In this document: piece by piece, positions 1,982 through 27,136 of the stretch
Numbering within the stretch: the stretch's first letter is position 1
Layout of the letters: every line of letters begins with the position of its first letter
Source of the DNA: the human T2T-CHM13v2.0 reference genome, Homo sapiens
DNA: 64,000 nt
Reading direction: 5' to 3' (one strand)
Assembly (NCBI RefSeq): GCF_009914755.1
Contig: NC_060926.1
Position numbers and translations under genes: made by a program
The notes under the pieces: model-generated
The model's input: the letters and a program-made list of their open reading frames with translations, nothing else
What the model was told of the DNA's origin: nothing
Database searches by the model: none

Positions 1982-3779
1982 AAAAACCTTGTTCTTTCTA
2001 TTTTACTTGATTTGAAACATATTTTAATTGAGGAGCATCATAAGCTCAAGAATAAATTATATGCTACTCATATTGCTGTTACCAGTGGTGCCTGACTTGC
2101 AAGCACATTCATTGAAGGATAATCTGCTTTGCAAAGAGGAACCAGTTAAAACTTGGATTATATTTGTTCAAATTGACACACATCAATGTTTTCTCTACTG
2201 TGTGTTAATCTCCCTTTTCCCCCAATAACATGGAATCCATACAAATTATACAATTATTATTTTTGTATTTTTTGAGTTTAGATGTGTTACAATCGTGATT
2301 TTGAAGGGATATCAAGAAGTCGTTTAAATTAACACTATAGTAGGCTGGCTGGAACCATCCCATAAAGCAATGGAATATGGAATGTCTCTCATGGATGCAC
2401 GGAGAGGGAAAAGGAGAACATATCCTTTAGCAGATTTTCCTCCATCATAGCATAAATCTGGAGCTCTCCCATTAAGAAAGAAAGAATATTAGTATTACCA
2501 ATTACCAAACACAGTGTCTTGAGCATGAAAGGTAATCCTTTGCCTTTGTAGAATCAGTATTTGTAATTGTATCTGCTTCTTTGTTTGAAAATATGGCTAG
2601 GAAAAGAAAATGCCCCCTAGGGAATTGACTAGGTTTTTTTTTTTTTTTTCCCCCAATTTTGTTTTCCTCCTCTCCTTTTTCCACTTCCCTCAGTCCCGTT
2701 CTTCCTTCCTCAGTATTTCTCTTTACTTATGATATTTCCCCCCATTTTTATGAAATAGGCACCTTAGTATGAGGATGGATCAGTGAGCCTAAGCTACCTT
2801 TGTCCTGTGCATTGAGGCATGGACAAATTTTTGGTCTTTCCTGTTGATTATAGTCTTGTACATTGAAGTTATGAGTATGACTACTGCATATTAAAGCTTT
2901 AAGACATGAACTTTTATAGAAAAATCTCTATATCACTCTATTTTAAAAATGTATTTTAACAAATATCAAAACCAATTATAAACAATTGACAAGAATACAG
3001 AAAACTTTATTATTAGTTAAAATTTTAAATATATTTTAAACCACATTTATTTGCAAATAAATTTTATTGTTTGATCAACTTGCAGATAAAAAGAATGGTA
3101 AATAAAATATTTTAATATAAAACATTACATCAATAATACTATATATAATATTGTATTACATCTGACTGTAAATTGTGAAAACAGGTTAGGTGTTACTGAC
3201 TCCATAAGGCATAATGGTTGATGTCAAATAATCAAACTATAGTTTGTTTAATAGTTTCCTATTGGTTTTAAACTCCCCAGGGTTACAACATTTACAGAAT
3301 ATTTATTGTAAAGTGCCAGGTTACCTGATAATACCATGTTAAAATTCTGCTAACATCCCTTTCACGCAGAGACTCTTAATGGGATTAACATATGTCACAA
3401 TTCAAAAACCTAAACAGAATTCTATTTAAACCTACTGGTTTTGAAAGAGACAGTGTTCAGGTGTTTATTTGTAGCACTTCTGGGAGTAATGCCAAACCCC
3501 AAGAACATTAGTATTCCTGAAACTTTACATTCTCTTCCTATAAATTGTTCTTCTGGAAAAGGTAAAATAGTATTATGTGATTAGACTACACATAGACATA
3601 ACTGTAATGACTTATTCACAGATGAGAAAAAAAGTGAGTGAGCTGTTAAAAAAAACATTACAAATAAAGGGGAAACATGACATTATTTTGTTTACTGCTT
3701 AGTATGTATATTTCAGCATGAATTTGCTGCCCCCATGATTCAAATACCTAGATTAATATTAATAATAGCAGGAATAAGT

Positions 3780-14706: not shown

Positions 14707-15094
14707 AATTCCCTGCCATTTTGAGATATTTTCCAGATAATTTTGGTACTACCTCAAGGGATTGGTTATCATTTTTTCCTAGAAAACAGTGTCACAATTT
14801 GAACTTTTTATCTTGCTGTCTTTCAAAAAGTCACTCTGATTCAGAGGTGAGTAGGCAAATTATTATTTCTTCCTCTCATTTTAAACCTCCCATGATGAAT
14901 CAAAGACTAAGAATCAAATAACCGTATCATTGATATTTTCAATTATCTTTAGTATGAGCTTTAAAAACTTTATGTTGTTGTTCTTTATTTACAAATGTCA
15001 TAGCCATCACAAGAAGAAAGAAGCAGCCTGGATGGCCTAATTACCACTTAAAAGAGAGCTCCCCTGATGATACGATGTCAATTAATGGACTTTG

Positions 15095-15578
15095 TGTAAG
15101 GGAACATTTTGCATATTTCTGCATGTCTTGTGACAGCTTTTTCACTATTCTGTCTTTTCGAGGATGTTTGTATAGCTAACAGCCTTGGAAGATATATTTC
15201 TCTTTTGAGCAGAAGGCAAATTTTGTTTTCTGACCAGTACAATAAAGATAATATCTGCTACTAAAGCAATAATATTTTAGTTGGGGTTCACAGCCTCCCT
15301 CAACAGATGGGGGCCTTGCTAAGCTTGGGGCTCCTCAGCTGTGACAGGAAACCATTGTATGCACAGCATCCACTCCATCAGCTCCACATGGCCCCTCCAG
15401 TGGTTGTGTAGCAGGGAGCACCCATGTGAACCTGAAGCTCATACTGCCTGCTGAACTGTGAGCGCTAATGTCTTCTGTCTATGACACAGGGAATATTTGT
15501 CCATCAGTAAGACCATGACATCCTCACTGGTTAGTTTGCAAGTACAGTAAAATCTCAGATCCCTAGCAATTTTTGACA
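15095..15578 (+). mobile_element. LTR40-like ERVL solo LTR
   Basis: aggatgtttgtatagctaacagccttggaagat...tgaagctcatactgcctgctg...ttgcaagtacagtaaaatctcagatccc...ttgaca. Confidence 0.75.
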
Positions 15579-15649
15579 ATGTCTATAGGTTAAGCTACTG
15601 ATGTCTCAGCCTTTGCTTATTTCTTCAGTATAGACTAATCTGTCATCAT

Positions 15650-16240
15650 AAATATTTCCAGAGATCTTAACTTTAATATGTCCAGAATTGAACTCATATT
15701 TATTTGGTACCCCAAACCATTTTCCCTTCAAGTGCTCCCATTTCAGTAAATTTTACTCTGAATTACGTAGAGAAGAAACTTTAGAATGGTCAACCTGCAC
15801 TTCTAATCAACTACTAAGTCTCATTCCTGCCACTACATACCAAGCAGATCACTATCATTCCTTACTTCCTGTATTATTCTCCTCTAATCTACTGGCAGAC
15901 CACAGACAAATGTCAAAAGATCTAAGTATGTCACTTCCCAATTTAAAAGCTTTCAGTGGATTCCTGGTTGGCATTAGGTAAAATAACAATACTTAAACTT
16001 GGCTTCCAATGTTGCTGTTTCCACACCTAGTCTTGTGTCCAACCCTACCTTTTGTTCTCTCCTTCATGGACTCTAATCTCCAATTGTAATAAATTTCTGT
16101 GCATGAATCCAGTGTCTTTAATTTTACCCCTCATCACCTGGTCATTCTGTTCCCTTGGCATGAAACATTTTGTTTTCTATACTTTATCTGCCTAAAAATG
16201 ATGTAGAACATACAAAGCACTGAAAAACCTCCCTGCCAAC
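15650..16240 (+). mobile_element. L2 fragment
   Basis: ctttaatatgtccagaattgaactc...tatgtcacttcccaatttaaaagctttcagtggattcc matches the L2 3' region. Confidence 0.65.
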
Positions 16241-16634
16241 CAAGGAATGTATTAGATAATGTCAATAAGAAATAATTATTTAATGTTTCTGGAATTAATG
16301 CATTTTGAAATTTGCTTCATAAATTCATAGAAATTACTTTTTTCAAAACAAGCATCAATTTATGGTACCTAGAAACTACCCCCCTCACACACACATGCAC
16401 ACTAAGCCAGTGAGATGAACATTTGTATATCTGTATGAGTTGTGCATATTATGAATTCCTAGCAGTGAGAATGCAATTAATTTTGAAGGGTAAATAGAAT
16501 TATGATTTGTTAATACACCTGCAATGGTAAGCAATGCTAAATTAAGATACAACTAATTTTGATTAGCTATATTAAAACTTGAGGTATTATGGAAATTAAT
16601 GATAGCCATATTTCATTTGACATTTAGTTTAAAT

Positions 16635-16835
16635 CGGGTACTGGACCAAGTTCTTCATACATGTTACCTCATTTAATCCTCATAACATTCACATGGGTGG
16701 ATACTATTATTAATTAATTTTACAGATGGTGGAACTGAAGTTTAGAGGGTTTAACTTACCTAGTGTTTCTGAGCCAGATGGATCTCAGCAGAGAAAGAAC
16801 CGTGGTCTTCAAATTCCAAAATAAGCCTCTTTACT
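16635..16835 (-). mobile_element. MIR
   Basis: catttaatcctcataac...tactattatta...ttttacagatggtggaactgaagtttagagg. Confidence 0.8.
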
Positions 16836-18239
16836 CGACAGGCTCAACTGCATGCTATTAGTAGAGTGAAAATGAATGCACACAATGCCATCTTTGAAAG
16901 AGTGATAAATGTGATGAGTTAAAATAGTTTGTTTACCTGGAATTCCAGTATAACTGTCATCTTTAACATCTGTAAAGACATTAGTAAAAATGCCTGTGAG
17001 TTTGGATATCTGATTAAAATAAAAATTCTACTAAAGTGAGTTATTTTCACCAATATTACTAAAAAAGAAAGCTGAAGTCATGGAGTGTAACAGTCACAGG
17101 GCATTTTATATAAAGCTCCTCAGTTCCAAATCCTCAGGTCCTCAGGATGTGGGGCTATTCCATCGCCACTTACATTGTCCTATGGTGAGTTCTGCCCACA
17201 CTACCCTGAAAACTCATAAAATCTAAAATCTTGGCCGATAAACATGTATATTGTTCAAAATAATTTGAATGGAAATCAATTTAGAGAATATTCACCTGTT
17301 AAGAATCAGGCCTTGAGATCTTATGGAAGTTATTAATCTTGGAGAACAAAGATATTGTCCTGTTGCTAAGTACATTGCCACTAGACAATTAGGAGTACTT
17401 CTTTACTTTATGAGACTCATAATGAGACTTTCTCCTCCAAGTCTTCTTGAAAAAACCTGTTATAGCCTTTTCAAAGAGAAAATTAATTCAAATTAAATTA
17501 TATATGTATAGCTGAAATATGTTTGAGAAATCATCAAAACAATAATACATATTATTAAATTTATTATAACAAACTTATAAAAATTGCAATTTACAGAATT
17601 CACACTTACAGAGAGATATATGTCAAGTGATTACTACATAGAAGCAGGGGAGAACAGAGAGTGGGAGTAAAGCTCTAGAATTAGTCTGGCTAGTTCATCT
17701 GGGCAATACCACTTCTGTTCAATAATTTTGGAACAAGAATGATGTTATTGTCCTCCATAGAGGAGAAATGTAATCTCATAGGCCAATATCACTGGAAGCT
17801 GGTATGCAATTTCTACAGCAGACATTCTGCTCCAGGTTACCCATCTTATGGGAGTTCATTTTGGATCTCAGCACAAAGGGATAGATCTCTCCTTTGGTGG
17901 GTCTTAGGCCTTAATCAGTACTGTTCTACCAGAGAGGCAGCCGAAAGTTCTAATCTTTATTTCAAATTCTAAATGATCTGTTCTGAGATTTTCGTATTTC
18001 TGCAGGTAAAAAATAACCGTAAATACTAAACTTGCTTCCTTGGGTCTATATTCTCCTTCAAATCATGGCTTGCTACTATTTAATTTCCTGTTGATTCACT
18101 GATGTCTTAAAGTAAATGTTTGATATGTTACCCAGACTTTTTGGTTGTTTCTCACAATTCAAGGTAAGTTCCATATTATTTAGTTCAAAATTATACAATA
18201 CAGAAGTCTTCATTTAATATTTTCAGAAATCTTAAGACT

Positions 18240-18344
18240 TAGAAATATTATTTTCTTTTGACAGATGAAAAACATAAGGATCAAAAAGAGTAATTTATCA
18301 TTCTGAGATAATATATATATATCTAAGGTTATATAATTATTATA
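18240..18344 (-). mobile_element. MIR fragment truncated by the satellite island
   Basis: aatattattttcttttgacagatgaaaaacataaggatcaaaaagagtaatt...ctaaggttatata matches the MIR core, then stops. Confidence 0.5.
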
Positions 18345-19258
18345 TGATTATTAAGACTGATATTTAATAATTAATCATATTATTACTCCTAATACCACAG
18401 GGGGTGTACACCTACCTGTGATATTGTTCCTCATATCCAGGGATGGAGAGCATGATATTAGTTTTAATATCGCAGTAGGTGTACACTCACCCTGTGACAC
18501 TGATCCTAATATCCAGGGGGGAGAGTATGACATGACTCCCAACATAACAATGAATGTACAGCCACCTGGTGATATTGCTCCGAATATTCATGGAAGAAGC
18601 CTATAATATTACTCCCAATATCGCAGGGAGTGTACACCTCTTCTGTGATATTGTTCCTAGTATCCTGAGGGGGAGAGGATGATAATAATTCCAGTATCGC
18701 AGGCTGTGTTCACCCACCCTGTGATATTGATATGAATATCCTGAAAGGGAGAGGATGATATTACTCCCCCATAATAGATAGATGTTATTCCCCATAATAG
18801 AGTAGGAGGTGTACACCCACCCTGTGATATTGTTCCCAATATTCAGAGGCCAAGAGGTTGATATTACTCCCAATATCGCAGAAGGTGTACACCCCCGTGT
18901 GAGATGGTCCTTAATAATATTCCAAGGTGGAGGGGGTGATATTACTACTTATATCGCAGAAAGTGTACACCCCCCATGGATATTGTTCCCATGATCCTGG
19001 AGGGAAGAGGATGATATTACTTTAAATATCACAGAAGGTGGACTTGCCCCCACTGATATTGTTTCTAATTTCAACGTGGGAGAGGACGATATGCCACCCA
19101 ATATCGCAGGGAGTAGAAACACCCCTGTGATACTGTTCTTAATATTCAGGGAGGAAGAGGATGATATTACACCCAATACAGCCGGGTGTACACCTTCTGT
19201 ACACCGAGGGTGTAAACACATCTGTGAAATAGTTCATAATTTCCAGAGGGGGAGATGA
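18345..19258 (+). repeat. SATR1/SATR2-type ~75-bp satellite, left arm of a ~0.9-kb inverted repeat (~12 monomers)
   Basis: Monomer gatattactcccaatatcgcagggggtgtacaccccctgtgatattgttcctaatatccagggggagaggat. The arm is the reverse complement of 19362-20249. Confidence 0.9.
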
Positions 19259-19361
19259 GGCACCCCCCTGAGATATGGGGAGTAAGAGCCACCCCCTCTC
19301 CCCCTCTGGTTATTACGACCCACGGTGGACTCACAGCTTGTTTATGATATTGTGAGTAGTA
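19256..19361 (-). repeat. GC-rich variant monomer and palindrome spacer
   Basis: tgaggcacccccctgagatatggggagtaagagccaccccctctccccctctggttattacgaccc. The same variant recurs at 23239-23334 and aligns to the reverse complement of the main monomer. Confidence 0.85.
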
Positions 19362-20249
19362 TCATCTCCCCCTCTGGAAATTATGAACTATTTCACAGAC
19401 GGGTGTACACCCGTCTGTATTGGGAGTAATATCATCCTCTTCCTCCCTGAATATTAAGAACAGTATCACAGGGGTGTTTCTACTCCCTGCGATATTGGGT
19501 GGCATATACCCCTCTCCCACGTTGAAATTAGAAACAATATCAGTGGGGGCGTGTCCACCTTCTGTGATATTTAAAGTAATATCACCCTCTTCCCTCCAGG
19601 ATCATGGGAACAATATCCCTGGGGGGTGTACACTTTCTGCGATATACGTTGTAATATCACCCCCTCCGCCTTGGAATATTATTAAGGACCATCTCACACG
19701 GGGGTGTACACCTCCTGCGATATTGGGAGTAGTATCAACCTCTCGGCCTCTGAATATTAGGAACACTATCACAGGATGGGTGTACACCTCCTACTCTATT
19801 ATGGGGAGTAATATCTATCTATTATGGGGAGTAATATCATCCTCTCCCTTTCAGGATATTCATCACAATATCACAGGGTGGGTGAACATGGCCTGCGATA
19901 CTGGCATTATTATCATCCTCTCCCTCTCGGGATACTAGGAACAATATCACAGAAGAGGTGTACACTCCCTGCGATATTGGGAGTAATATCATACGCTTCT
20001 TCCGTGAATATTCGGAGCAATATCACCGGGTGGCTGTCCATTCATTGCTATGTTGGGAGTCATGTCATACTCTACCCCCTGGATATTAGGATCAGTGTCA
20101 CAGGTGAGTGTACACCTACTGCGATTTTAAAACTAATATCATGCTCTCCATCCCTGGATATGAGGAACAATATCACAGGTAGGTGTACACCCCCTGTGGT
20201 ATTAGGAGTAATAATATTATTAATTATTAAACATCAGTCTTAATTATCA
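19362..20249 (-). repeat. SATR-type satellite, antisense array (right arm of the inverted repeat)
   Basis: Reverse-complement monomers (gatattgggagtaatatcatcctctccc...). About 30 differences from the left arm in ~580 bp compared by eye. Confidence 0.9.
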
Positions 20250-20595
20250 ATGGTAATATTAATTAATAGTACAACCTTATTAATCATTAATGATTATTTT
20301 AAATATATGATTATGCATGATTTAAATTATTACTATTAAGGTCATTTTTCAATAATATTAGTTATTAATTTTAATATTAATTATTGTTTTATTACCAACA
20401 TCACTTATGATTGATTTAAGTAACATTAATTACTGATATCATTATTTTATTATTAATAGTGATATTACTATTATTAGTAGTAATCATTAATATTTTTAGT
20501 CCATATTAACTTTTACTATCTCTATTGTAATTATTAATATCGATGATTACTATTAATTGTTATTATATTTATTAATATTAATAATTAATATAACT
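20205..20595. repeat. Extremely AT-rich low-complexity core between the divergent arrays
   Basis: ~390 bp of tattaat/aatattaa/ttattat words with very little G/C. Confidence 0.9.
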
Positions 20596-23238
20596 GTTCC
20601 CGATATCCGTGGGGGAGAGGATATTACTCCCGATATCGCAGAAAGTGTACACCCTTCTGTGATGTTACTTCTAATAGCTGGGGGTAGAGGATGACATTAT
20701 TGAAAATATCGCAGTGGGTGTACATCCCTTCGGTCATCTTGTTCCTAATATCCTGGGTGGGAGCAGATGAAATGACTCCCAATATCTCAGGGGGCGGAGA
20801 CCTCCCCCGTGATACTGTCCCTAACGTCCAAAGGTGGAGAGGATGGTATTTCTTCCAATTTCACAAGGGGTGCACACCACCCCTGTGATATTGATCCTAA
20901 TATCCAGGGGGCAAGAGGATGATATTAGTCTCAATATTGCAGGAGGTGTACACTCCCTAGGGATATTGTTCCTAATATCCAGGGACGGAGAGAATGATAT
21001 CACTCCCAATATAGCAGGGGGTGTACACCCCTTCTGTGACATTGTTCCTAATAGCCAGCGTGGGAGAGGAAGATATTACCCCCAATATCGCAGGCGGTGT
21101 ACACCCCCTTGTGACATTGTTCCTTCTATCCTGGGAGGGAGAGGAAGATACTAGTGGCAATATCGCAGGGGCTGTACACACCCACTGTGATATTGTTTCG
21201 AGTATCCCGAGGGGGGAGAAAATGATATTATTCCCAATATCGCAGGGGGTGTACATCCTCCTGTGATATCGTTTCTTATATTCAGGGGGAGAGGATGATA
21301 TTACTCCCAATATCTCAGGTGTTGTACACACCTCCTGCGATATTGTTCCTAATATCCCGAAGGGGAGAGCATATTACTCTCAATATCGCAGGGGGTGTAC
21401 ACCTCCTTTGGAATACTGTTTTTAGTATCCATGATGGGAGAGGATGATATTACTCTCAATATCGCAAGAAGTGTACAGCCGCCTGTGATATAGTTCCTAA
21501 TATCTAGGTGGAGAGAGGATGATATTACCGCCCGTATTGCACGAGTTGTAAAACCTCTTCGATATTTTGCCTACAATCCCGAGGGGAGAGGACGATACTA
21601 CTCCCAATATCGAAGGTGTACACCCCCCTGTGACTATTCCCAATATCCAAGTCGGGAGACGATGACATTACGCCCAATATCGCAGGGGATATACACCCAC
21701 CCTGGGATATTGTTCCTTTTATCAAGAAGGGGAGAGGATGACATTACTCCCAATATCACAGGGGCTGTACACCCCTCCTGTGATATTGTTCTTAATATCC
21801 TAGGAAAGAGAGGATGATACTACACCCAATATCGCAGGGGGTGTACACCCACCTCCTTAAGATATTGTTCTTAATGTACTCCACCTCCCCCTACCAGGGA
21901 TATTGTTCCTCATATCCAGGGGATGAGAGGATAACATTATGCCCATTATCGCAGGGGGTGTACACACCCTCTGTGATGTTGTTCCTAGTATCCAAAGGTA
22001 GAGACGATGATATTACTGGCCATATCGCAGGGGGTGTACACCCTTCTGTGATATTGTTTTTGATATTCGAGGTGGGAGAGGATAACATTAGTCCCAATAT
22101 GGCAGAAGGTGTGCGGACCCCTGTGATATAGTGCCTAATGTACAGGCAAAAGAGAATAATATTACTCTCAATATCGCAGGGAGTGTAACCCCCTCAACCC
22201 CCCGTATATTGTTCGTAATATGCAGCGGGGTAGAAGCTGATATTACTCCCAGTTTCGCAGAAGGTGCACACACACCTGTGATATAGTTCGTAATACCCAG
22301 CGGGAAAGAGGCTGATATAACTCTGGATCTCGCAGTGGGTGTACACCCCCAACCCCCCCGGGGTATTGTTCCTAATATCCAGGTGGGAAGACGATGATAT
22401 TGCTGACAATATCGAAGGGGGTGTACAACTCTTCTGTGATATGGCTTCTGATATCGAGGGGGTGAGTGGATGATATTACTCCCAATAACGTAGCAACTGT
22501 ACAGCACCGTGTGATTTTGTCCTTAATAACCACATGGGGAGAAGTGATATTACTCTCAATATTGCAAGGGGTGTACACCCCACCTGTGACATTGTTTCTT
22601 ATATCCAGGAAAGGAGAAGATGATATTACTACCAATATCGAAGAGATGTACAGCCCCATGGGATATTGTTCTAAATATACAGGTTGAAAGAGGATCAGAT
22701 GACTCCCAAAATAACAAGGGGTGTACACCCCGCCTGTGATATGAATCGTAAAATTTAGAAGAGTGAATGACATTGCTTCCAAAAAAACACGGGGTGTACA
22801 CCCCCTCTCTGATATCGTTCCTGTCATCTAAAGGAAGAGATGATGATATTACTCCCAGTACCGCAGAATATACACCCCCCCTGTGATATTGTGCGTCACA
22901 ACTAGTGGGGGAGAGCATGATATTACTTCAAATATGACAGTGGCTTTACACCCCGTCTGTGATACTGCTCCTAATTTCCAGTAGCTAAAGTAAGATGTGC
23001 CTCCCAATAGAGTAGTGGGTGGACACCCGCCCTGTGATATTTCCCCGACTATTTAGGGAAACACAGGATGACATGACCCCAAATCCCGCAAAAAGTGAAC
23101 ACCCATTGTGTGATATGGTTCCTAATACGCGCAGGTGTAGAGGATGATATTACGTTTCATATCGCAGGCTGGGTACACACACCCTGTGAAATTGTTCCTA
23201 ATGGCAGGAAAAAAGAGAATGCTAATAATGGACACAGA
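20596..23238 (+). repeat. SATR-type ~75-bp satellite, sense array (~35 monomers)
   Basis: tgtaca cores recur at ~73-77 bp spacing (e.g. near 21021, 21097, 21172, 21249, 21322). Confidence 0.92.
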
Positions 23239-23334
23239 TAAGAGCCACCCGCGATGCGGGGAGTAAGAGCCACCCCCTCTCCCCCGCCTGGCTATTACGA
23301 CCCGCATCGCAGGGGGGTGAGGCACTCCCCCGCG
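23239..23334 (-). repeat. Terminal GC/CpG-rich variant monomer
   Basis: gcgatgcggggagtaagagccaccccctctcccccgcctggctattacgacccgcatcgcaggggggtgaggcactcccccgcg is in direct orientation with 19256-19323. Confidence 0.85.
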
Positions 23335-23339
23335 TTTTT

Positions 23340-25885
<2,546 letters not shown>

Positions 25886-25928
25886 CCTCAATTTGTTTTT
25901 ATAATTATGTATTTTAGTGTTAGCTTTC

Positions 25929-26311
25929 CATATTAGTCCATTTTTTTACACTGCTGTAAGGATACTACTGGGTAATTTATAAATGAAGAGGTTTAATTGA
26001 CTCACAGTTCTGCATGACTGGTGAGGCCTCTGGAAAGTTACAATCACTGTGAATGGGGAAGCAGTCATGTCTTACATGGAGGCAGGCAAGAGAGAGCACT
26101 TGTGAGTACAGGAAAAACTGCCATCATCTATAAAACCATCAGATCTCCTGGGAATTCACTCAGTATACTGAGAACAACATAGAGGAACTGCCCCCACAAT
26201 CAAATCACGACCCTCCCTTGACACCTGAGGATTGCAGGTGCCTCCCTCGGTAAGTGGGGATTACGATTTGAAATGAGATTTGGTTGGGAAACACAGTGCC
26301 AAACCATGTCA
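25929..26311 (-). mobile_element. THE1D/MSTA-type MaLR solo LTR
   Basis: tattagtccat...gaggtttaattgactcacagttctgcatg...gagatttggttggg...ccaaaccatgtca. 5-bp TSD ctttc (25924-25928 / 26312-26316). Confidence 0.92.
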
Positions 26312-27136
26312 CTTTCCCTTTCAAAATATTTTAAGCATGAAATTAATCCCCTGTAACTGACTCGGCCTAGATGTCTATCTGTGTTGTGTCTTGGTTTCTT
26401 CTATTTTATCTACTGACTTAATAGCTTTTTCACACTTTGTGAACATAAGAAAGAAGTATTTTAATCACTGTTAGTGGGAAATAGAGTGCTGTGATATTTT
26501 GGAGGCACGACTGCAAATACTTATCATCAAAAGCTTTTTGAGTGCATATACTCTTTAGCTTAGGAAATCCACTTTCGATTTACAAAACAAATGACACATT
26601 GTTTACAATAATAAAATTTTTTAAAAGCTTAATTATTCTGTAAAGGGAAACCAGATAAGTAAATTAAGGTATACGATATGACTGAATAATCTGGAATCCT
26701 TAAAAATGATGTGGTAGAAGAAGTATATATAACAATGTATATTCTCATTATATTACTTAGTAAAAAATAGCTGCTTATAAAAATAAATGACTAATAGTTA
26801 AGCCCTAATAGTGGAAGTTTTTATCTAATGAGACAATGTATTCTGTCTTTGGGAGATTCTACTTCTAGAAATTTTTTCTAATTATTAAATTTAGGTCTGT
26901 CCTATTAATCACCTCCAATATTATAGAGACCAGATCCAATTGTTCTTCCATTTGGTAGGCAATTATCTTTTCAAGTCTCGTCTTTAATCTTCTTGTTGAA
27001 AAATAAGTTTAAAATTCTTATTTATTTTACTTGTATTTCATATAACAAGGTCTTATGTTTAATTTTTGAACAGGCTGAAATTTTTCCTGTTTTGTTTTTA
27101 AAACCTTATATAGAAACATACATCTAATATTAAAAT

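What the first reader, a model, noticed from the sequence alone, without database searches (positions are those of the whole stretch)
19256..23334. ~4.06-kb satellite cassette with in-register redundant ends: candidate mobile unit with a circular intermediate
Seen: the order is GC-rich variant monomer (from 19256), antisense 75-bp array, AT-rich core, sense array, then the same GC-rich variant monomer (to 23334). The last 17 nt (23318-23334 tgaggcactcccccgcg) match the first 17 nt (19256-19272 tgaggcacccccctgag) at 14/17. Joining the ends therefore continues the GC-rich monomer in register and closes a 4062-bp circle. Known: the monomer resembles the RepeatMasker satellites SATR1/SATR2, which are annotated only as satellites and, as I recall, are reported mostly in OR7E-type segmental-duplication clusters. 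I see no such cargo here. Inference: this is one higher-order unit that excised by recombination between GC-rich monomers and reintegrated as eccDNA or a rolling-circle product. That would make SATR a dispersing structured element, with an origin-like layout of an easily unwound core flanked by divergent palindromic iterons, rather than a passive satellite.
Basis: partly seen in the sequence, partly recalled or inferred. Interest (0 to 1): 0.9.

Follow-up and report, generated by a model that had tools for sequence, protein, structure and literature searches.

The report
SATR satellite cassette with added palindrome
This is one copy of a known primate satellite unit (SATR type) that recurs with the same internal order at dozens of human sites, and its apparently circle-closing ends come from the repeat's own period and a local inverted duplication.

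Summary
So are the 14/17 end match and the 4062-bp arithmetic.

The block, however, starts at 18345, not 19256. Bases 18345-19258 are an inverted duplicate of 19362-20249.

The monomer matches published SATR1 primers. The same cassette, in register at 81-94% identity, occurs at dozens of CHM13 sites:
- The AT core alone gives 43 non-self matches.
- 20 of 20 cores examined have antisense-left and sense-right arrays.
- 9 of 17 fetched loci share flanks and belong to one segmental-duplication family; in the one checked, the block abuts a retroviral gag-pol remnant, matching the published SATR-HERVE-SATR flank of Xiao/DA.
- The other 8, and the window, have unrelated flanks.

So the unit did spread without its flanks. 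I found no target-site duplication (0 of 6), no circular permutation (0 of 6) and no coding capacity.

A macaque T2T preprint already describes this unit order. A circular intermediate is neither shown nor excluded.

The parts
17721..18343 (+). Left-flank segment F. It has one other copy in the genome, inverted, about 52 kb downstream at chr2:193137972-193138595, outside the window.
   Evidence: One search found the self match plus one match at 93%. Searches give 92.4% substitution identity (47 substitutions in 620). The homology stops at the edge of the satellite block.
18345..18380 (-). Truncated, inverted copy of the left edge of the AT core (counterpart of 20214-20249); 13.9% GC.
   Evidence: the alignment runs 18345-19258 against 20249-19362; arm I6, 97%.
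18381..19258 (+). Left palindrome arm: a sense-oriented 75/76-bp array that is an inverted duplicate of the antisense array.
   Evidence: In the tree it is sister to the right arm (support 98/96). Other loci match it only as the reverse complement of their own antisense array.
19259..19361 (+). Palindrome spacer, which is the head of the cassette: about 0.85 of a GC-rich variant monomer plus a conserved switch sequence where orientation flips to the antisense array. The TGA at 19256-19258 could belong to either side of the junction.
   Evidence: The same switch sequence is present in L021, L024, L028 and L029.
19362..20213 (-). Antisense 75/76-bp SATR1-type array (right palindrome arm).
   Evidence: It is 87-94% identical to copies at 13 other fetched places.
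20214..20595 (+). AT core: 382 bp, 14.7% GC, a specific conserved sequence.
   Evidence: In one search, 33 non-self matches span at least 385 of the 431 query bases at 81-93% identity.
20596..23195 (+). Sense 75/76-bp SATR1-type array. Neighbouring monomers are only 67-71% alike.
   Evidence: One search shows in-register matches of 83-93% at other loci. Primer matches.
23196..23239 (+). Tail linker: a non-monomer sequence between the sense array and the GC tail.
   Evidence: also in L024 and L029. (also at chr9:80.49M, 42.18M, 77.05M and 117.997M, chr5:147.77M, chr1:191.17M and chr22:36.16M).
23240..23334 (+). Tail GC-rich variant monomer (70.5% GC, 9 CpG), itself a strong dyad.
   Evidence: DNA fold of -26.8 kcal/mol, z -5.1, with 0 of 200 shuffles as good.
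23335..26000 (.). Right flank: an old interspersed repeat, LINE-like (that name is recalled), interrupted by an Alu-like insert at about 24005-24320.
   Evidence: 1131 candidates, non-self identity 70-76%; 1163 candidates, 66-77%. for the Alu-like matches.

Best explanation
The block 18345-23334 is one copy of a primate-specific composite satellite unit of the SATR family. It is non-coding and not self-mobilising.

The unit reads: GC-rich variant monomers, an antisense array of 75/76-bp SATR1 monomers, a conserved 382-bp AT-rich core, a sense array, a short linker, then GC-rich variant monomers again in the same orientation as the first.

Shown:
- The unit was copied as a whole to many chromosomes. 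In-register identity between loci (81-94%) far exceeds identity between neighbouring monomers (67-71%).
- One lineage sits next to a gammaretrovirus-type gag-pol remnant and was amplified with the Xiao/DA (OR7E) segmental duplications.
- Other copies, including this one, lie in unrelated flanks.

Inferred:
- Copies arrived by DNA-level break repair (duplicative transposition or templated insertion). The break-prone places are the hairpin-forming GC arrays and the AT core.
- In this locus the head-proximal 0.9 kb was then copied in inverted orientation by a fold-back or template-switch event, using a TGA microhomology at 19256-19258. This made a 914-bp-arm palindrome with a 103-bp spacer and removed the original left junction.
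- The 17-nt "redundant ends" follow from the monomer period plus that junction.
For: Identity as SATR1:
- Primers designed on the SATR1 consensus (PMC3606032, supplementary file 3) match 12 and 7 times, only inside the block and in the expected orientations.

Copied as a unit:
- A 1260-bp piece of the sense array matches 5 other places over at least 1170 bases at 83-89% and 17 places over its first ~747 bases at 90-93%.
- Shifted self-alignments inside the array reach only 67-71%.
- BLAST of window 15000-27000 against 17 fetched 10-kb loci found homology of 80% or more in 16 of them (none in L028). It begins at 18333-18358 or 19247-19257 in 15; in L021 the head-side match is weaker than 80%. 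It never enters the flanks, apart from Alu-like matches at 23996-24320.

Fixed order:
- 20 of 20 AT cores have the antisense array on the left and the sense array on the right.
- GC variant monomers at head and tail are in direct orientation.

Segmental-duplication lineage:
- 9 of 17 loci share non-satellite flanks at 88-95%.
- In L033 the block is followed by Gag_p30, RVP, RVT_1 and RNase H matches. This agrees with the published SES = SATR-HERVE-SATR (PMC2700803 passages; PMC5088589 passages).

Solo status of the window:
- The left flank is unique apart from one local 624-bp inverted copy.
- The right flank is an old interspersed repeat with no match above 77%.

Palindrome made in place:
- The arms are sisters in a 22-row tree (98/96).
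- 10 of 11 other loci compared with themselves have no such inverted pair.

Not a transposon:
- No flank word exceeds shuffles at the 5% level in any of 6 loci.
- Outer ends fall at different monomer phases.
- 0 Pfam families in the 7 longest of 13 stop-to-stop frames of 90 aa or more.
- No Rfam match.
Against: - No empty site or outgroup genome was available. The mode of arrival (break repair versus circle) and the order of events are therefore inferred.
- All 6 simple solo copies begin in the GC array and 4 of 6 end in one. This regularity is also what recombination between GC arrays would give.
- The sister relation of the two arms could come from arm-to-arm gene conversion after two separate copies were juxtaposed, as at chr14:45.94M, where two cassettes of different clades lie head to head.
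- I could not compare the block with the Dfam/Repbase SATR1, SATR1v or SATR2 consensus sequences. Which label the GC-rich monomer and the AT core carry is unknown.
- The genome search scores only the best candidates, so all locus counts are lower bounds.
Confidence: 0.72

Rival explanations
1. Circle-mediated spread. Recombination between the direct GC-rich arrays excises a circle carrying antisense array, AT core and sense array. The circle re-enters the genome by recombination or end joining within a GC array. The result is a cassette bounded by GC arrays, or a tandem multimer.
For: - All 6 simple solo copies start in a GC array and 4 of 6 end in one, in direct orientation.
- Tandem cassettes share one GC stretch between units at chr3:75.66M, chr12:8.43M and chr9:117.99M.
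- No target-site duplication in any of 6 loci.
- Flanks are unrelated.
- GC monomers also occur away from full cassettes, at L044 and L045.
- Satellites in general are known to form circles (recalled, not checked here).
Against: - No circular permutation among the 6 simple solo copies. A circle opened at random is therefore excluded, and opening must be confined to about 5-10% of its length.
- Copies truncated inside the sense array (L021, L028) and a 0.9-kb distal fragment (L048) look like ordinary partial copies or deletions.
- The window's own head is a palindrome junction, not an integration junction.
- Unequal crossing-over explains the tandem copies equally well.
- No paper in the searched library holds both SATR1 and eccDNA.
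Confidence: 0.15
2. The cassette moved passively inside a larger segmental duplication, as it does in the OR7E/Xiao/DA clusters.
For: 9 of 17 fetched loci are of this kind. The literature places SATR1/SATR2 in Xiao/DA core duplicons.
Against: - For this locus, homology to all 17 loci stops at the block edges.
- The left flank has only a local 624-bp inverted copy.
- The right flank matches nothing above 77%.
- No retroviral or olfactory-receptor sequence adjoins the block.
Confidence: 0.03
3. The cassette was carried by a transposable element: retroviral or LINE-mediated transduction, or a rolling-circle transposon.
For: The duplicated lineage abuts a gag-pol remnant. Xiao/DA have been called LTR-retrotransposon-like, with 4-9-bp target-site duplications (PMC2700803 passages).
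Against: - No target-site duplication.
- No poly-A tail at either end.
- Variable end phases.
- No coding matches inside the block.
- No retroviral sequence next to the window's copy.
Confidence: 0.04
4. The layout is functional: an AT-rich unwinding core between divergent dyad-bearing repeats acts as a replication origin or another selected structural element.
For: - The order is invariant in 20 of 20 cores.
- The core is a specific sequence kept at 81-93%.
- Monomers carry an internal dyad (z from -0.2 to -2.8 for three monomers, -5.1 for the GC monomer).
Against: - The core is no better conserved than the arrays beside it, as expected if the whole unit is simply copied.
- Many copies are truncated.
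- The macaque preprint reports such units as heavily methylated (section 7).
- No origin data could be consulted.
Confidence: 0.03

Closest known systems
SATR1-SATR1v core unit of rhesus macaque mixed arrays (bioRxiv 10.1101/2025.08.04.668424; section 7 read)
   Same: The order of modules: GC-rich variant array, inverted SATR1 array, AT-rich repeat, forward SATR1 array. Both solo-core and multi-core (tandem) loci occur, including interstitial solo cores without spacer duplications.
   Different: - Sizes: macaque 589-bp inverted and 191-bp forward arrays, against 852 bp and about 2600 bp here.
- The macaque GC array averages 81% GC, against 61-70% here.
- Sequence homology to the macaque AT-rich repeat (rnd6) could not be tested.
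- The window adds a 914-bp inverted duplicate.
SES (SATR-HERVE-SATR) flanking element of the Xiao and DA core duplicons (PMC2700803 and PMC5088589, passages read)
   Same: The same cassette sequence: 88-92% identity over about 2.1 kb to loci at chr4:9.5M, chr11:67.98M, chr7:6.96M, chr3:75.66M and chr12:8.43M. L033 (chr4:9.5M), the one of these checked, adjoins a gag-pol remnant.
   Different: The window's copy has no retroviral or OR7E neighbour and no shared flank. Its sense array is about 2.6 kb rather than about 0.75 kb.
SATR1 satellite of RepeatMasker/Repbase
   Same: The published SATR1 consensus primers match the monomers.
   Different: The family label describes monomers only. Here the unit is a 2-5-kb ordered composite. 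The consensus itself was not available for comparison.
Fold-back inverted duplications and template-switch (MMBIR/FoSTeS-type) rearrangements (recalled concepts)
   Same: An inverted duplicate joined through a short spacer, with a possible 3-nt microhomology. A second inverted templated piece (F) adjoins it.
   Different: F and its partner are more diverged (7.6%) than the arms (4.4%). By my arithmetic from those counts, z is about 2.6. A single event is therefore not shown.
Spread of euchromatic satellite blocks via extrachromosomal circles, proposed for Drosophila (recalled, not checked)
   Same: Short satellite blocks appear at new sites without flanks and without target-site duplications.
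   Different: Here the dispersed thing is an ordered composite with fixed ends in GC arrays. No circle evidence exists for it.

Membership tests
SATR1 satellite | Monomer sequence matches the SATR1 consensus | tested here: met
   Primers built on the consensus (PMC3606032 supplementary file 3) give 12 and 7 matches at up to 2 mismatches, 0 expected, all inside 18501-23200. This is an indirect test, because the consensus itself was not at hand.
SATR1 satellite | RepeatMasker/Dfam alignment to SATR1, SATR1v or SATR2 models for each module | not testable with these tools
   No Dfam or Repbase library was available. The labels of the GC-rich monomer and the AT core remain open.
SATR composite core unit (macaque preprint) | Order: GC-rich array / inverted SATR1 / AT-rich repeat / forward SATR1 | tested here: met
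   (20 of 20 cores).
SATR composite core unit (macaque preprint) | Module sizes of 589 bp (inverted) and 191 bp (forward) | tested here: not met
   852 bp and about 2600 bp in the window; about 880 bp and 750 bp in the short human copies.
Xiao/DA SES flank | SATR block directly adjoining a HERV-E-type internal region within a shared duplication | tested here: not met
   The window shares no flank. The feature is met for L033 and for the 9 loci sharing flanks.
Transposable element (any class) | Target-site duplication and fixed termini | tested here: not met
   None of 6 loci has a flank word beyond shuffles at the 5% level. Ends fall at different monomer phases.
Transposable element (any class) | Coding capacity or known structured RNA | tested here: not met
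   0 Pfam matches in the 7 longest of 13 frames. 0 Rfam matches.
Insertion derived from a circular intermediate | Copies that are circular permutations of one another | tested here: not met
   None of the 6 simple solo copies with both ends fetched (window, L021, L024, L027, L028, L029) is permuted.
Insertion derived from a circular intermediate | Reads spanning the tail-to-head junction in circle-enriched DNA | not testable with these tools
   No such data were available. Genomic tandem loci would give the same junction.
Replication origin | ORC/MCM binding or nascent-strand enrichment | not testable with these tools
   No such data were available.

The most novel reading that the evidence does not exclude
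The SATR cassette behaves like an integrating and excising unit whose direct GC-rich arrays serve as its recombination sites. Circles carrying antisense array, AT core and sense array form by GC-GC recombination and re-enter at GC arrays. This would explain three things: every simple copy is bounded by GC arrays, none has a target-site duplication, and tandem multimers share one GC stretch. It would also give the Xiao/DA core duplicons their preferred breakpoints.
Probability: 0.12. Interest if true: 0.7.

Novelty: new member of a known kind. Interest (0 to 1): 0.28.

Why it matters
SATR1/SATR2 blocks mark the breakpoints of the Xiao/DA core duplicons that drive 8p23.1 and related rearrangements (PMC5088589). 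The macaque T2T authors state that the mechanism of their spread is unknown.

Human solo copies share one ordered unit, always end in GC arrays or the AT core, and carry no flanks or target-site duplications. That narrows the possible mechanisms and gives concrete junctions to test in ape T2T assemblies.

For this particular locus the result is mostly corrective. It is an ordinary member of a described family, with a local palindrome.

Tried and rejected
- Rfam scan of 17500-24000 at E up to 1: no match.
- Target-site duplications at 6 loci: none beyond shuffles. The best was a 7-mer at L028, reached by 31 of 500 shuffles.
- Looked for the upstream part of the right-flank interspersed repeat on the left of the block or anywhere in the window, using three other copies (L040-L042). 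Not found. Those copies themselves extend only 45-145 bp beyond the junction point, so this says little.
- Considered one multi-template-switch event making both the left arm and segment F, since both are inverted and adjacent. It is weakened because F and its partner are more diverged than the arms: 47/620 against 39/888.
- Considered that the sense and antisense arrays form an old in-register palindrome around the AT core. Inverted alignments reach only 69-72%, the same as any shifted register.
- Considered an inverted triplication. The third array is not an in-register copy of the left arm (72%).
- Looked for GC arrays standing alone as possible target sites. Of 4 small loci fetched, 2 are truncated cassettes (L043, L046) and 2 hold GC monomers in other contexts (L044, L045). 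Inconclusive.
- Literature: 31 papers hold SATR1 or SATR2. None holds SATR1 together with eccDNA.
- The bioRxiv preprint's supplementary figures and tables, which may show unit sequences, could not be seen.


Full report
**What is in the sequence**

Between 18345 and 23334 the window holds a 4990-bp satellite block. Tandem Repeats Finder reports arrays of period 74-76 at 18404-18760, 19380-19792, 19828-20213, 20620-21854 (16.5 copies, 71% matches), 21899-22192, 22206-22346 and 22538-22739.

A strand map made with the window's own monomers gives this order:
- a sense array at 18381-19258
- an antisense array at 19362-20213
- an AT-rich core at 20214-20595 (14.7% GC)
- a sense array from 20596 to about 23195
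- a short non-monomer linker
- a GC-rich variant monomer at 23240-23334 (70.5% GC)

A second, partial copy of that variant monomer lies at 19256-19330, in the same orientation (93.5% over 46 nt). None of 341 BLAST HSPs of the block falls elsewhere in the window.

Bases 18345-19258 are the reverse complement of 19362-20249. The match is 92.9% over 914 alignment columns, with arms of 95-97% in the ungapped repeat finder, or 95.6% counting substitutions only (39 in 888). It includes 36 bp of the AT core's left edge.

So 19256 is not an end of the element. It is the inner junction of a palindrome whose 103-bp spacer (19259-19361) is the cassette's head.

At that junction the left arm ends in TGA. 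Normal heads at other loci read ...ggggTGAggcacc. The three bases could therefore belong to either side. I read this as a possible microhomology; that is an inference.

The "in-register closure" is a property of any two cuts in the same phase of a roughly 78-80-bp monomer. In genomic tandem copies such as chr3:75.66M, the equivalent of 23334 and the equivalent of 19250 lie 62 bp apart. This is the same register with one more partial monomer.

**What family it is**

Primers that Carbone and colleagues designed on the SATR1 consensus (PMC3606032, supplementary file 3) match the window 12 and 7 times at up to 2 mismatches, with 0 expected. All matches are inside the block and on the strand the map predicts. 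I could not compare with the Dfam/Repbase consensus sequences, so which label the GC-rich monomer and the AT core carry is open.

**The cassette is a dispersed unit**

The window's own assembly could be searched.
- A 1260-bp piece of the sense array matches five other places over at least 1170 bases at 83-89%: chr2:82.5M, chr9:117.99M, chr9:10.98M, chr14:45.95M and chr11:43.3M.
- It matches chr13:53.5M over 932 bases at 85%.
- It matches 17 places over its first ~747 bases at 90-93% (352 candidates, 23 scored, so these are lower bounds).
- Shifted alignments within the array reach only 67-71%. The inter-locus matches therefore show copying of the whole ordered sequence, not monomer similarity.
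- The AT core with its two borders gives 43 non-self matches. Of these, 33 span at least 385 of 431 bases at 81-93% (59 candidates, 40 scored).

I fetched 17 loci of 10 kb. In 16 of them there is homology to the window at 80% or more; L028 has none. It begins at 18333-18358 or 19247-19257 in 15 of the 16; in L021 the head-side match falls below 80%.

It ends at about 21342 in the short copies, where the tail GC monomer follows soon after. In longer copies it ends at 21527, 22481, 22563, 22871 or 23330. It never continues into the flanks, apart from Alu-like matches.

The left arm matches other loci only as the reverse complement of their antisense array, so they lack it.

In 20 of 20 AT cores examined, the antisense array is on the left and the sense array on the right of the core.

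**Two populations of copies**

Nine of the 17 loci (L026, L030-L037) share non-satellite flanks with one another at 88-95%. The window and the other eight share none.

In L033 (chr4:9.5M) the block is followed within about 300 bp by frames matching Gag_p30, retroviral protease, reverse transcriptase and RNase H. This fits two published descriptions:
- the "SATR-HERVE-SATR" flanking element of the Xiao and DA duplicons (PMC2700803, passages)
- the statement that the Xiao core contains OR7E flanked by SATR2, SATR1 and ERV1, with SATR repeats marking duplication breakpoints (PMC5088589, passages)

The window's flanks are not of that kind:
- 16800-18344 is unique apart from one local copy.
- 23335-24000 and 24330-26000 belong to an old interspersed repeat whose best non-self matches are 66-77%.

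The module order is conserved, head-to-tail multimers exist, and the flanks are not duplicated. The multimers are at chr3:75.66M (period ~2.2 kb, 83%), chr12:8.43M (88%) and chr9:117.99M (period ~5.3 kb, 90%).

**Does that show a circle?**

No. The simple solo copies with both ends fetched are the window, L021, L024, L027, L028 and L029.
- All six begin in GC variant monomers.
- Four end in GC variant monomers. Two (L021, L028) stop inside the sense array.
- None is a circular permutation. A circle opened at a random place is thereby excluded.
- The outer ends lie at different phases of the monomer.
- No flank word exceeds shuffles at the 5% level in any of the six.
- A seventh place (L048, chr1:191.17M) holds only the last 0.9 kb of the sense array plus the linker, at 88% to the window.
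- The block has no Pfam-recognisable coding capacity (7 of 13 frames tested) and no Rfam match.

These facts fit DNA-level copying with breaks in the GC arrays and in the AT core. The GC monomers are strong dyads (-26.8 kcal/mol, z -5.1). The AT core is where the window's left arm and the duplicated-type blocks end.

The same facts also fit a circle that forms and re-enters only through its GC array. I cannot separate the two, and I rate the second at about 0.15.

**The palindrome**

In a tree of 22 copies of the arm region the two window arms are sisters (98/96). The nearest other copy is chr13:53.5M. Of 11 other loci compared with themselves, only chr14:45.94M has an inverted pair (83.7%). 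Its two members belong to different clades, which indicates juxtaposition rather than duplication in place.

I conclude that the left arm arose in place by a fold-back or template switch. Arm-to-arm gene conversion could mimic the sister relation.

**A further local rearrangement**

The 624 bp just left of the block (17721-18343) have one other copy in the genome. It is inverted and lies about 52 kb downstream, just outside the window. The homology stops exactly at the block edge.

Its orientation would fit one nascent strand that folded back, copied 19362-20249, jumped about 50 kb ahead in the same direction, copied this piece, and returned.

However, the pair is more diverged (47 of 620) than the arms (39 of 888). 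By my arithmetic from those counts, z is about 2.6. A single event is therefore not shown, unless conversion has kept the arms alike.

**Comparison with what is known**

A 2025 preprint on the rhesus macaque T2T genome (section 7 read) describes SATR1-SATR1v "core units". Each consists of a GC-rich SATR1v array, a 589-bp inverted SATR1 array, an AT-rich uncharacterised repeat, a 191-bp forward SATR1 array and a further repeat. The units occur as solo cores and tandem multi-cores, some interstitial without spacer duplications. The authors say the mechanism of spread is poorly understood.

The order is the one found here; the sizes differ. The structured unit is thus in print, and the human duplicated copies are in print as SES. 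I found no paper in the searched library that links SATR1 with eccDNA.

**Verdict**

The specific evidence offered for a circular intermediate is not evidence, and the origin idea is untested.

This locus is a new member of a known kind, with a local palindrome and an adjoining inverted flank copy as its only peculiarities.

Noticed in passing
window 17721-18343 and locus L038 5972-6595 (chr2:193137972-193138595): A 624-bp piece of the left flank has a single inverted copy about 52 kb downstream, at 92.4% substitution identity. The homology ends exactly at the satellite block's edge. Neither copy's outer context is shared.
   Followed up: partly
L025-L027 (chr14:45.943-45.985M): Three cassettes lie within about 35 kb. 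Two lie head to head about 1 kb apart and belong to different clades of the arm tree. One of them is of the segmental-duplication type, as if a duplication had landed beside an older solo cassette.
   Followed up: partly
L022/L023 (chr9:117.986-118.004M): A tandem pair of long cassettes with a period of about 5.3 kb (90% identity), plus a further partial head. This is the largest block seen.
   Followed up: no
L033 6625-10000 (chr4:9.50M): In the duplicated lineage a gammaretrovirus-type gag-pro-pol remnant starts about 300 bp after a truncated AT core. No LTR-sized gap lies between them, so the satellite block sits where a 5' LTR would be expected.
   Followed up: partly
L044 (chr12:30.993-30.996M) and L045 (chr11:3.431-3.434M): GC-rich variant monomers occur without the full cassette. 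In L044 they recur every ~500 bp among unrelated sequence, which suggests another composite repeat built on the same monomer.
   Followed up: no
L048 240-1146 (chr1:191.17M): An isolated 0.9-kb fragment matches only the distal part of the window's long sense array plus the tail linker (window 22358-23255, 88%).
   Followed up: no
L029 about 2880-3070 (chr13:53.53M): The head of this solo cassette abuts a stretch of repeated CCAATCAGC-like units. I recall these as typical of ERV9/LTR12 U3 regions. The name is recalled and comes from no call.
   Followed up: no
literature: PMC3059204 (passage read) lists hsa-mir-3683 as derived from SATR1. The dyad in each monomer could explain hairpin precursors. 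No Rfam family matched the window's block.
   Followed up: partly
chr9:99203-99617 and chr2:113935202-113935596: AT-core copies of 86-92% identity lie about 99 kb from the chr9 short-arm end and at chr2:113.9M. I recall the latter region as carrying subtelomere-derived duplications near the ancestral fusion site; this was not checked.
   Followed up: no
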